NCBI GenBank assembly: GCA_963850305.1
Contig: CAWKKR010000001.1
Coordinates: 32,001-96,000, forward strand
Reading direction: 5' to 3'
Source: an uncultured delta proteobacterium
GTDB lineage: Bacteria; Myxococcota_A; Polyangia; Polyangiales; Polyangiaceae
DNA: 64,000 bases
The notes beneath the pieces were generated by a model. The model was not told where the DNA came from. It did not search any database and was given only the letters and a program-made list of their open reading frames with translations. Below, in pieces: positions 36,821 through 55,516 of the stretch; position 1 is the first letter of the stretch, and every line of letters starts with the position of its first letter. The position numbers and the translations under genes are program-made.

Positions 36821-36868
36821 TGACAAAAATTGTCAGCGGCAGGGGCGAGCGACCGACAATCTCCGCCA
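36821..36868. promoter_or_regulatory. Probable PilR enhancer (UAS)
   Basis: Palindrome TGACAA-AAA-TTGTCA (36821-36835) and degenerate CGACAATCTCCGCCA 33 bp away, about 85-130 bp upstream of the sigma-54 site. Confidence 0.6.
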
Positions 36869-51772: not shown

Positions 51773-52348
51773 ATGACGCTTCGCACGGCACTGCTTTCCG
51801 TGTCCGACAAGACCGGCATCGTCGATTTCGCAAGAGGGCTCGAAAAGCTCGGCTTCACGATGCTATCGACCGGCGGCACGTATCGCAGCCTGGTCGACGC
51901 GGGCGTCCGCGTCGGCACCGTGGAGGCCTACACGGGCTCCCCGGAAGTGATGGACGGCCGCGTGAAGACACTCCATCCACGCGTTCATGGCGGACTGCTC
52001 GCCCGCGCCGGTAAGGACGACGCGGACCTCGCGCGGCTCGGCGGCAGCTACATCGACCTCGTCGCCGTGAACCTCTACCCGTTCGAAAAGACGCTGGAGA
52101 AACCGAACGCTACCCGGGCAGAGCTCATCGAGAACATCGATATCGGTGGACCCAGCATGCTCCGCTCCGCGGCGAAAAATCACGACCGCGTCGCCGTGAT
52201 CTGCGATTCCGCGGACTACGCTCTCGTCCTCGAAGAAATCCGTGAAGCCGGCTCCGTCCGCGCCGAGACCCGTCGACGGCTGGCAGGCAAGGTCTTTGCG
52301 CACACGGCAGCGTACGACTCGGCCATCGCGAGCTGGTTGAACGGTTGA
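51773..52348 (+). CDS. purH: IMP cyclohydrolase domain (N-terminal half of PurH only)
   Basis: ALLSVSDKTG, STGGT, GRVKTLHP, VNLYPF, NIDIGGPSMLRSAAKN, HTAAYD, then a stop; no transformylase domain follows. Confidence 0.88.
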   Translation: MTLRTALLSVSDKTGIVDFARGLEKLGFTMLSTGGTYRSLVDAGVRVGTVEAYTGSPEVMDGRVKTLHPRVHGGLLARAGKDDADLARLGGSYIDLVAVNLYPFEKTLEKPNATRAELIENIDIGGPSMLRSAAKNHDRVAVICDSADYALVLEEIREAGSVRAETRRRLAGKVFAHTAAYDSAIASWLNG

Positions 52349-52532: not shown

Positions 52533-52832
52533 GTGAGCGAACGCGAATTGAGAGAGGCTACCGCAAGGGTCCTCCACGCAGACGATGATCGAGGCTCGGG
52601 CGCGTTTTTCGCACCGCCGAAACCGGTGGTCGGCGCGGGAAGCGAAAAGGCCGAAAGTAAGCCCCTTCACTACAAGGTGATTTGCATTTCGATGTACACC
52701 GATGACCTCAAGCGTCTCGACACGATGGTCGAATCGCTGAAGGCTCGCGGACTCACGAAGGCCAACCGAAGCGCGCTCATCCGCTACGCTCTATCCAACG
52801 TCGATCTGGAGCAGGTGCCCAAGGGACTCTGA
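52533..52832 (+). CDS. Small ribbon-helix-helix-like DNA-binding protein
   Basis: RBS AGGAGG; C-terminal [31 protein letters not shown] fits an RHH pattern. Confidence 0.7.
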
Positions 52833-53913: not shown

Positions 53914-54597
53914 TCACACCTCAAGCAAATCGGCGTCGACCGACTCGCTCGCCGGCTCTAGGTCGACGTCCTCGACGTCATCGTCGTCGTCGTCCGGGAC
54001 GGGCAGATCAGCCTTCGAGAGCTGGGGCAAGCGTCGCTTTCCAACCGGGCCTTCGTCCACGTATTCACGAAGCGCCTCCATGTCTCGCAGGGCTTCGAGC
54101 TTGGCGAGAGCTTTTACTTCGACCTGTCGAATGCGTTCGCGCGTCAGATTCATGATCGCCCCTACATCCTCTAGAGTGGTTCCGCCGCGATCGGCAACGT
54201 CGAGGGCGCAGGATTCGCCCATGTCCCAGACCTCGAGATCGGGAAAGTTCAACTTGATGGCACCGGTCCGCGGCGAAACGTCGATGAACAGATGATGCTT
54301 GCAGGAAACGAACGGGCACGGACGCGGGCCATCGAGACACTCCTCGCGAGCGCGCGGCTTCCAGTACTCGGTCTCGGGATAGAGCAAGCGCCCGATCTCG
54401 AGCTCCCGCTTGGTCATGCGCTTCACGCTGATCGTGCGAGCACGAACGACGCGCTTTCGTCGCGAACGGCGCTGTTCCCGGGTGATGACTTCTTCGTTCG
54501 AGTCGCTCGAGAGAGCCGTCGCACCCTCCGTCGCGGGCGCAATCGGGCTTTCTGCTAATTCCGCTGCCGCGTCGATCGTTTCCGCAATGTTGGACAT
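53914..54597 (-). CDS. Stand-alone sigma-70 region 4 HTH protein with Cys cluster
   Basis: RBS GGAGG before ATG 54597; C-x6-C-x4-C-x30-C, then [27 protein letters not shown]; acidic tail. Confidence 0.8.
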
Positions 54598-54779
54598 GAT
54601 GGTTGCCTCCACTCGCATTTTCGCCATTCGGTGAGCACACGATCCCCGTCGCGTCCCGAGGGCGTTGCCCCCTCGGCGCCTGATCCATGTTTGATTCGAG
54701 AAGAGAAAGAGGTCCGAACGCCCTCAGGCGCGCGTACGCACCTCCACTGACCGCCGTGCCGCTGAAGACACGTCCGCGC

Positions 54780-55295
54780 TCATGACGCCGACACCCGCCT
54801 CAACGTCGATCGCGCCGAAAGCCGCGATTCAATCGTTCCAAGCCGGACCACAAGATCGCGACTCAGTGCCTTTGCACCTTCAACATCGCGAGCGACTGTC
54901 TGCGCATACGCCTCGGCGCGGCGCTCCTTGAGGACGCGGCCGAGCGTGTCGAAAATGTTGTCGAGCGTGGCCTCGAGCGCCTGGATGTCGCTCCGCATGA
55001 ACAGGACATCGCGCTTGATCTGCTCGATCGTATAATTGTCCGCCATCATCTCCTTGATCCGTAGGATCTGGCGAATGACGGTTACGGGATAAACCCCCTG
55101 GGAACCCTGGTGTTTGCCCTTCCGACCGACGCGGACGCTGCGCGGCAGGAGGCCGACCTGCACGTACTTACGCAGTGTCGCCTCCGTCAGATGAACGCCA
55201 CCGGTCGCAAAGAGATCGAGGATCTCGGCGGAAGTTAGGCCCGCCGCATGGTCGCGTTCGATGCGGTCCAAAGTGCTCTCGTCGATTCGGTCCAT
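54780..55295 (-). CDS. MerR-like HTH DNA-binding protein
   Basis: LTSAEIL..LTEATLRKYVQVGLLPRS..GVYP..IRQILRIKEMM..YTIEQI, followed by a coiled coil. Confidence 0.75.
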   Translation of the reverse strand: MDRIDESTLDRIERDHAAGLTSAEILDLFATGGVHLTEATLRKYVQVGLLPRSVRVGRKGKHQGSQGVYPVTVIRQILRIKEMMADNYTIEQIKRDVLFMRSDIQALEATLDNIFDTLGRVLKERRAEAYAQTVARDVEGAKALSRDLVVRLGTIESRLSARSTLRRVSAS

Positions 55296-55340: not shown

Positions 55341-55516
55341 GAATATATTCTACTCAGTGGATTCACCAAACGATTTTCCAAGGAATTATTTGGCCATTCC
55401 ATGCGACAGCTCCATGGACCCGGGTTCGCCTCGAAGACGTGACATTGATTGTCACAACTAACGAAATGTCCATGGAGCTTTTTTAGCGTCCATACACACA
55501 TGGACACACATTGGAC
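55341..55516. promoter_or_regulatory. AT-rich divergent control region with multiple palindromes
   Basis: GAATATATTC; AGCTCCATGGAC/GTCCATGGAGCT; GTGACA-N5-TGTCAC; GTCCAT-N6-ATGGAC. Confidence 0.6.

What the first reader, a model, noticed from the sequence alone, without database searches (positions are those of the whole stretch)
53914..55295. MerR-like gene paired with a Cys-cluster protein carrying a stand-alone RpoD-type region 4.2
Seen: [27 protein letters not shown] closely matches primary sigma region 4.2, but regions 2 and 3 are absent. An Arg-rich stretch and C-x6-C-x4-C(KHH)-x30-C precede it and an acidic tail follows. The upstream co-oriented gene is a MerR-like HTH with a basic wing insertion (RVGRKGKHQGS) and no evident effector domain. 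Known: region 4 binds -35 elements, the RNAP beta flap and activators. Inference: a metal/redox-gated sigma mimic or -35 binder working with a BldC-like DNA-binding protein, possibly an undescribed regulatory system.
Basis: partly seen in the sequence, partly recalled or inferred. Interest (0 to 1): 0.75.

Follow-up and report, generated by a model that had tools for sequence, protein, structure and literature searches.

The report
Myxobacterial AsgB operon with self-regulating partner
The 'sigma mimic' is this genome's copy of AsgB, a gene regulator known from Myxococcus since 1989 whose mechanism is still unresolved, and comparison shows an invariant four-cysteine (likely metal-binding) domain, many phage copies and an upstream MerR-like gene that likely controls the operon's own promoter.

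Summary
The Cys-cluster/region-4.2 protein is the orthologue of Myxococcus xanthus AsgB: 55% identity over 126 aa to a protein identical to Q1D899, best hit in this genome, same gene order. The upstream gene is the orthologue of MXAN_2912 (45%). It is not a sigma fragment, and region 4.1 is missing as well as regions 2-3.

Not found in the papers searched:
(1) four Cys invariant in 136 of 136 cellular and 80 of 80 viral loci, in a confidently predicted domain with no solved-structure match;
(2) AsgB is a mostly single-copy core gene (181 of 301 phylum genomes), while the MerR-like gene (56 of 301) was not found without it and is repeatedly lost;
(3) an 11-bp palindrome between -35 and -10 is present in 73 of 98 loci with the MerR-like gene, at chance level elsewhere, and gone from the same promoter position in 10 of 10 MerR-less relatives, so it is likely that protein's autoregulatory operator.

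The partner has a long coiled-coil tail and is not BldC-like. Metal identity, DNA target and polymerase binding are untested. The scan found this operon before on other DNA (e1-2228153).

The parts
53914..54597 (-). asgB orthologue (227 aa from the likely start; 237 aa from the upstream ATG at 54627)
54403..54483 (-). Arg-rich segment and first strand (residues 49-75, RRSRRKR..R.RTIS), conserved across the family
54187..54360 (-). Four-cysteine domain (C97, C104, C109, C140), predicted metal site; no solved-structure match found
54097..54183 (-). Primary-sigma-type region 4.2 helix-turn-helix (TRERIRQ recognition helix)
54052..54096 (-). Extension aligning with the last helix of sigma70 (L186); in this lineage but not in M. 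xanthus AsgB
53917..53997 (-). Acidic, low-confidence tail; lineage-specific
54780..55295 (-). MerR-superfamily gene, orthologue of MXAN_2912: winged HTH with basic wing plus two-helix coiled-coil tail, no Cys
55350..55360 (-). Motif A, pseudo-palindrome CCACTGAGTAG (consensus CYAYTSARTRG) in the promoter spacer; inferred operator of the MerR-like protein
55342..55369 (-). Inferred sigma70-type promoter of the operon (TTGGTG here, TTGAC in many relatives; TATATT); below the threshold of the simple scan
55440..55454 (.). Motif B, palindrome TGACA-N5-TGTCA upstream of the promoter; at this position only in the window's own family; binding protein not assigned

Best explanation
This is the myxobacterial asgB operon: AsgB is likely a sequence-specific transcription factor whose four invariant cysteines likely bind one structural metal ion (zinc more likely than an iron-sulfur cluster) and whose sigma70-type recognition helix would read TTGACA-like DNA, while the upstream MerR-like protein likely binds a palindrome in the operon's own promoter and tunes AsgB levels. 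Shown: identity as AsgB and MXAN_2912 orthologues, invariance of the Cys and of the recognition helix, absence of sigma regions 2, 3 and 4.1, the distribution of both genes, and joint loss of the palindrome with the MerR-like gene. Inferred: metal binding; that the Cys domain takes the scaffolding place of region 4.1 so that the HTH folds and acts off the polymerase; that the Arg-rich segment adds DNA-backbone contacts; that AsgB acts at sigma70-type promoters by occupying -35-like sites; and that the MerR-like protein represses rather than untwists the promoter (spacer 16-18 bp, operator abutting the -10).
For: Orthology: the published MXAN_2913 primers (PMC3986340 Table S2) match with 0 mismatches inside the family ORF in 8 of 20 large-genome loci (L261-L268). 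That ORF is 163 aa and identical to UniRef 'DNA-binding protein AsgB' Q1D899; the upstream protein clusters with MXAN_2912. P0001 vs AsgB is 55% over 126 aa, E 1e-48; P0002 vs MXAN_2912 is 45%, E 1e-40. AsgB's best hit in this genome is this gene, E 1.5e-42; the other two hits are region-4-only sigma matches. The start-to-start distance of 567 bp in L261 equals the +279/-288 offset in PMC4320627. purH is adjacent from Myxococcales to distant classes and lies 1.6 kb away in the window. Cys: 137, 139, 139 and 140 of 140; all four in 136 of 136 cellular and 80 of 80 viral loci; R163, E164, R165, R167 and Q168 in 136 of 136 cellular. AlphaFold core pLDDT 83-97 for residues 51-180. Core-gene behaviour: 58 of 58 same-class genomes and 181 of 301 phylum genomes; 150 of 151 in the order of an Anaeromyxobacteraceae record. 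M. xanthus RS14110 (492 nt, 'DNA-binding protein', RPKM 560; matched to asgB by length and by offset to purD) took no transposon insertion in PMC11046052 Table S5, and no upstream neighbour tag is in that list. Operator: strict motif in 73 of 98 loci with the MerR-like gene (shuffled expectation 1.9), 1 of 38 without (1.3), 1 of 80 viral (2.4); absent at the homologous position in 10 of 10 MerR-less promoters of the window's family that could be aligned, although the -35, A-tract and motif B persist; MerR-less loci fall at three or more separate places on a weakly resolved tree.
Against: No call shows DNA binding, a target site or metal binding by AsgB. No conserved dyad was found upstream of 27 distant MerR-less or 80 viral asgB genes, and motif B could not be tied to AsgB. 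The 98 pair loci are heavily related, so 73 of 98 is not 73 independent events. 25 of 98 lack the strict motif; a relaxed pattern tuned afterwards gives 88 of 98. The Tn-seq call is weak: asgB has only 2 TA sites, and PMC3986340 reports a stable disruption. Motif A shows no genome-wide enrichment over its control, so there is no sign of a wider regulon.
Confidence: 0.6

Rival explanations
1. AsgB works on the polymerase as a sigma adapter or appropriator: it docks on holoenzyme (beta flap or sigma4) and its HTH replaces or competes with sigma70 region 4 in reading the upstream promoter element; phages carry copies to redirect host transcription.
For: The recognition helix is as invariant as in primary sigmas. 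In this lineage the similarity runs on through sigma70's last helix (L186 in 102 of 140). There are 80 viral loci, and 1 of 25 scanned has the module fused to a sigma with regions 2 and 4 (L209). asgC, another A-signal gene, is an rpoD allele (recalled).
Against: Region 4.1, which forms much of the flap-tip pocket (established knowledge), is absent. The last-helix similarity is missing from M. xanthus AsgB and from about half of the cellular loci.
Confidence: 0.2
2. The four Cys hold an iron-sulfur cluster, and AsgB is a WhiB/SoxR-like iron or redox sensor whose DNA binding is switched by cluster state.
For: Exactly four invariant Cys and no invariant His (H112 is His 116, Asn 20 of 136). The asgB mutant resembles tan variants that over-express iron-acquisition genes (PMC3986340, passages; bioRxiv 10.64898/2026.08.28.747804).
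Against: The Cys spacing differs from WhiB's (recalled), and no Fe-S protein was matched by sequence or fold. The iron phenotype is shared by unrelated tan mutants. asgB expression changes only about twofold in development.
Confidence: 0.2
3. AsgB and the MerR-like protein form one functional complex.
For: The MerR-like gene was found only in genomes with asgB (56 of 56) and sits directly upstream in 98 loci, in both Polyangia and Myxococcales.
Against: 125 of 181 asgB genomes and 80 of 80 viral loci lack it. Its linkage is fully explained by a local operator that is lost with it.
Confidence: 0.1
4. The gene is a broken piece of a full sigma factor.
For: Only region 4.2 matches RpoD models.
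Against: Homologues across the phylum have the same short architecture with intact frames, the genome has separate long sigma genes, and the protein is a named, studied gene product.
Confidence: 0.01

Closest known systems
AsgB (MXAN_2913, Q1D899) of Myxococcus xanthus
   Same: 55% identity over the whole conserved core, all four Cys, same recognition helix, best hit in the genome, same upstream gene, purH nearby.
   Different: This copy is longer (227 vs 163 aa), with a sigma70-like last helix and an acidic tail; His instead of Asn at position 112; purH is split and rearranged here.
MXAN_2912 (annotated MerR family; noted only as the possible first gene of the asgB operon in PMC4320627 file 9)
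   Same: 45% identity, same basic wing, same position, same palindrome in the promoter.
   Different: One operator copy here, three copies at 14-bp spacing in L261-L268; no function found in the papers searched.
Primary sigma70 (RpoD/SigA) region 4
   Same: Region 4.2 HTH with the -35-reading residues.
   Different: No regions 2, 3 or 4.1; a Cys4 domain precedes the HTH.
GlnR/TnrA/NmlR-type MerR-superfamily regulators; BldC
   Same: Winged HTH matches GlnR/TnrA at rmsd 2.6-3.9 A over about 80 residues (Foldseek probability 0.98-0.99 but E above 0.1); no sensor domain recognised.
   Different: Extra N-terminal helix, longer basic wing, two-helix tail, compact 11-bp site; BldC is an HTH-only protein of about 70 aa (recalled).
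WhiB-like (Wbl) Fe-S regulators
   Same: Small essential-type regulator with four invariant Cys, linked to sigma region 4 biology.
   Different: Different Cys spacing, no GVWGG turn (recalled); carries a region 4.2 rather than binding one.

Membership tests
AsgB | Sequence homology to M. xanthus AsgB over the conserved core | tested here: met
   55% over 126 aa, E 1e-48; reference identical to Q1D899 and matched by published primers
AsgB | Best hit and only full match in the genome | tested here: met
AsgB | Downstream of an MXAN_2912 orthologue, near purH | tested here: met
AsgB | C-terminal HTH similar to sigma70 region 4 (PF04545) | tested here: met
AsgB | Needed for A-signal production, growth and phase variation | not testable with these tools
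   needs genetics; the organism is known only as an assembly
sigma70 family sigma factor | Region 2 (core binding, -10 melting) | tested here: not met
   no Sigma70_r2 match at E up to 0.1; NCBIfam matches cover residues 146-192 apart from one weak diffuse ECF-superfamily match
sigma70 family sigma factor | Region 4.1 | tested here: not met
   Pfam model positions 20-48 of 50 only; alignment starts at sigma70 residue 571
sigma70 family sigma factor | Region 4.2 recognition helix | tested here: met
sigma70 family sigma factor | Binds core RNA polymerase | not tested
MerR superfamily (upstream gene) | MerR winged HTH | tested here: met
   MerR_1 E 2.8e-4, just under the cut-off; Atlas clusters named MerR; fold matches
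Canonical MerR activators | Operator in a 19-20 bp spacer, and an effector domain | tested here: not met
   inferred spacers are 16-18 bp (start sites not mapped); no Cys and no recognised effector domain
BldC | HTH-only protein without a dimerisation tail (recalled) | tested here: not met
   171 aa with two long C-terminal helices
BldC | Head-to-tail binding on direct repeats | tested here: inconclusive
   three tandem copies in L261-L268, a single palindrome in most other loci
WhiB-like | Cys-x19-22-Cys-x2-Cys-x5-Cys and GVWGG turn (recalled) | tested here: not met
   spacing is x6, x4, x30; no WhiB Pfam match
WhiB-like | Fe-S cluster | not testable with these tools
   needs metal analysis

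The most novel reading that the evidence does not exclude
AsgB defines a phylum-wide class of essential regulators in which a new metal-binding fold (possibly an Fe-S sensor) is grafted onto the -35-reading helix of the housekeeping sigma factor and substitutes for or competes with sigma region 4 at promoters; myxobacterial phages have captured it many times to reprogramme host transcription.
Probability: 0.2. Interest if true: 0.75.

Novelty: new member of a known kind. Interest (0 to 1): 0.38.

Why it matters
AsgB is one of the founding A-signalling genes of Myxococcus development, yet a 2026 preprint still calls it only 'likely a transcription factor'. The comparison gives concrete handles. 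There are four invariant Cys to mutate and assay for metal, and a confidently predicted domain without a solved match. There is a candidate regulator and an 11-bp operator for asgB expression. There is evidence that AsgB is a core gene of genomes as small as 2-3 Mb in the group, and that it occurs on many viral contigs. The disruption primers also suggest why one study obtained an asgB 'disruption' while others infer essentiality. As a discovery of a new system it is modest: the gene is known, and the scan reported the operon before.

Tried and rejected
Motif B (TGACA-N5-TGTCA) as the AsgB site was attractive because it is an inverted -35-like repeat. It sits at this promoter only in the window's family (22 of 33 with and 6 of 11 without the MerR-like gene by the strict pattern; 0 of 15, 0 of 50, 0 of 27 and 0 of 80 in the other groups). 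It also occurs in genomes with no AsgB match (for example 5 of 7 in f27, 9 of 19 in f39). Not assigned.

Motif B as the LexA box was rejected: it is not upstream of lexA, and lexA, one recA and imuA share a different GTTCAG-type site (LexA consensus recalled).

Dyad search upstream of distant and viral asgB genes found nothing convincing. Motif A is not enriched genome-wide.

Fold searches of the whole AsgB model gave no match at E 0.001 or better in PDB or BFVD, and best Z 2.6, confined to the HTH. The Cys domain was not folded and searched alone, so this does not show that the fold is new.

No match in GenBank phages or PLSDB plasmids. The promoter/terminator scan found nothing at its threshold. 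No RNA holder was listed. Complex prediction (homodimer with Zn) was not available, so there is no result. Plamann et al. 1994 was not held; its content is cited only through other papers or marked as recalled.

Literature searches. None of the listings or passages read mentions Cys or metal in AsgB, a function for MXAN_2912, or phage homologues. Most subscription papers, including the 1989, 1994 and 2012 asgB papers, and bioRxiv supplements were not searchable and could contain such statements.

Full report
Observation. Pfam gives only Sigma70_r4 on residues 149-177 of P0001 and a sub-threshold MerR_1 on P0002. NCBIfam and PDB sequence matches to primary sigmas cover about residues 144-193 and begin at E. 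coli sigma70 residue 571, so region 4.1 is missing along with regions 2 and 3. The likely start is 54597 (GGAGG upstream, 227 aa). Named homologues are Polyangiaceae/Myxococcota.

Distribution. The core (residues 60-162) was found in 181 of 301 phylum genomes, including 58 of 58 of the same class, mostly as one copy. It was also in 150 of 151 genomes of the order that holds an Anaeromyxobacteraceae record (the tally includes one unpublished genome, on which nothing else rests). The MerR-like gene was found in 56 of the same 301 genomes with a profile (58 with the single sequence, two of them marginal), all among the 181. In fetched loci it lies directly upstream in the same orientation in 98 of 136 cellular loci, and is absent from the other 38 and from 80 of 80 viral loci (four duplicate loci and 60 plain-sigma loci L091-L150 were left out). 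So the Cys/sigma4 gene is the conserved core and the partner is dispensable.

Identity. An earlier scan note suggested AsgB, and I tested it. PMC3986340 (passages and supplement file 2) describes AsgB as 163 aa with a C-terminal region-4-like HTH and lists MXAN_2913 primers. Both primers match without mismatch inside the family ORF in 8 of 20 loci from large genomes. The ORF is 163 aa and identical to UniRef 'DNA-binding protein AsgB' Q1D899, and the upstream protein clusters with MXAN_2912. One discrepancy: the primers span 290 bp, while the paper states 212 bp. The distance between the two starts, 567 bp, equals the offset given in PMC4320627 (passages and supplement file 9). P0001 is 55% identical to AsgB over 126 aa and is AsgB's best hit in this genome. 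P0002 is 45% identical to MXAN_2912. purH lies next to the gene from Myxococcales to distant classes, and 1.6 kb away here. The window's genes are therefore the asgB operon.

AsgB anatomy. In 140 sequences (P0001 plus 139 of the 150 listed representatives; 11 partial or repeated ones left out) C97, C104, C109 and C140 are kept in 137, 139, 139 and 140, and H112 in 119. All four Cys are present in 136 of 136 cellular and 80 of 80 viral loci. The viral search patterns included two of the Cys, the 80 are the best of 463 confirmed stretches, and I did not verify that each contig is a phage. The recognition-helix residues R163, E164, R165, R167 and Q168 are invariant in the cellular set. AlphaFold models residues 51-180 at pLDDT 83-97 as a small alpha/beta domain followed by the HTH, with pTM 0.57 overall. 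Whole-model fold searches matched only the HTH, and weakly; the Cys domain was not searched alone. Four invariant Cys without an invariant His indicate a Cys4 metal site by inference. Zn is the more common occupant (established knowledge), but Fe-S is not excluded. One of 25 scanned viral ORFs carries the module fused to a sigma with regions 2 and 4 (L209), which agrees with note e1-5917210.

Essentiality. A 1994 title and PMC4320627 call AsgB essential or apparently so (the 1994 paper itself was not held). A 2026 preprint got no fitness score for it (passages). Table S5 of PMC11046052 lists a 492-nt 'DNA-binding protein' at the matching offset from purD as uninserted, with no upstream neighbour listed. 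Against this, the gene has only two TA sites, and PMC3986340 reports a stable disruption. The disruption fragment starts within codon 1 and ends near codon 97. By inference, integration would leave a promoterless copy with Met28 and all four Cys and the HTH downstream, so that allele may not be null.

The partner and its footprint. P0002 is modelled as a MerR winged HTH with two long C-terminal helices, and its best structural neighbours are GlnR, TnrA and NmlR, without significant E-values. It is not BldC-like. Upstream regions show a conserved promoter with a pseudo-palindrome (consensus CYAYTSARTRG; window 55350-55360) between a TTGAC-like -35 and the -10. The strict 9-bp core is in 73 of 98 loci with the MerR-like gene (shuffled expectation 1.9), 1 of 38 cellular loci without it (1.3) and 1 of 80 viral loci (2.4). 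A relaxed pattern, adjusted after seeing the misses, gives 88 of 98, 6 of 38 and 11 of 80, against expectations of 6.9, 5.0 and 9.1. In 10 of 11 MerR-less loci of the window's family the promoter could be aligned: the -35, the A-tract and motif B persist, and the palindrome is gone in all 10. The losses fall at three or more places on a weakly resolved tree, including one in Myxococcales. The site is not enriched genome-wide. The simplest reading is a local autoregulator. Repression is inferred from the 16-18 bp spacer and the overlap with the -10; start sites are not mapped.

Motif B. A second palindrome, TGACA-N5-TGTCA (55440-55454), looks like an inverted pair of -35 elements, but it is at this promoter only in one family and occurs in genomes without AsgB. 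In the family search 9 of 28 fetched sites were at asgB operons; others were before imuA-like and pilin genes. It is left unassigned, so no AsgB target was identified.

Mechanism. Best reading (0.6): AsgB is a metal-scaffolded, sequence-specific transcription factor using a sigma70-type helix on -35-like DNA, with its dose set by the upstream MerR-like autoregulator. Rivals: a polymerase-bound sigma adapter (0.2); an Fe-S sensor (0.2, compatible with the best reading's DNA role); an obligate two-protein complex (0.1); a sigma fragment (0.01). Co-folding could not be run, so dimerisation and flap binding are open.

Verdict. This is a new member of a known kind. The Cys4 domain, the operator and the viral homologues were not found in the papers searched, but most subscription papers on asgB were out of reach. 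The scan had already reported the operon, the Cys site and the phage relatives; the direct proof of orthology and the operator co-loss test were done here. Interest 0.38.

Noticed in passing
window 51773-52348 (+); G000:C6:164428-165609: purH is split in this genome: the window holds only the N-terminal part (51% to residues 1-205 of a full PurH), and a divergent C-terminal part (about 30%) lies on another contig; relatives have the fused gene beside asgB.
   Followed up: partly
window 36821-36835 (G000:C1:68821-68835); L286: A perfect motif B (TGACAAAAATTGTCA) lies upstream of a type IV pilin-like gene; the same 15-mer recurs once in many phylum genomes. It may be a pilin-activator site (inference).
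   Followed up: partly
G000:C9:35369-35383; L283, L289, L308: Motif B also lies upstream of imuA-like genes in three genomes and, with one mismatch, of one recA, in G000 beside a separate GTTCAG-type site; it may mark a second regulator of DNA-damage genes.
   Followed up: partly
window about 55390-55510; L001-L031: Repeated TCCATGGA / TCCAT-N-ATGGA palindromes flank motif B in the promoter of this family; no factor assigned.
   Followed up: no
L209:4014-5339: Viral sigma factor with regions 2 and 4 fused to an AsgB module.
   Followed up: partly
L078, L088; G282, G112: Some genomes carry extra AsgB paralogues without the MerR-like gene (up to 5 matches); L088 groups with viral sequences and has a changed recognition helix.
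   Followed up: partly
window 52533-52832 (+): 99-aa ORF with no Pfam match, kept near asgB in close relatives and with a hit in viral locus L213.
   Followed up: no
L261 asgB ORF; PMC3986340 Table S2: The published asgB disruption primers span 290 bp, not the stated 212 bp, and start in codon 1, so the insertion allele may leave a near-complete copy.
   Followed up: partly
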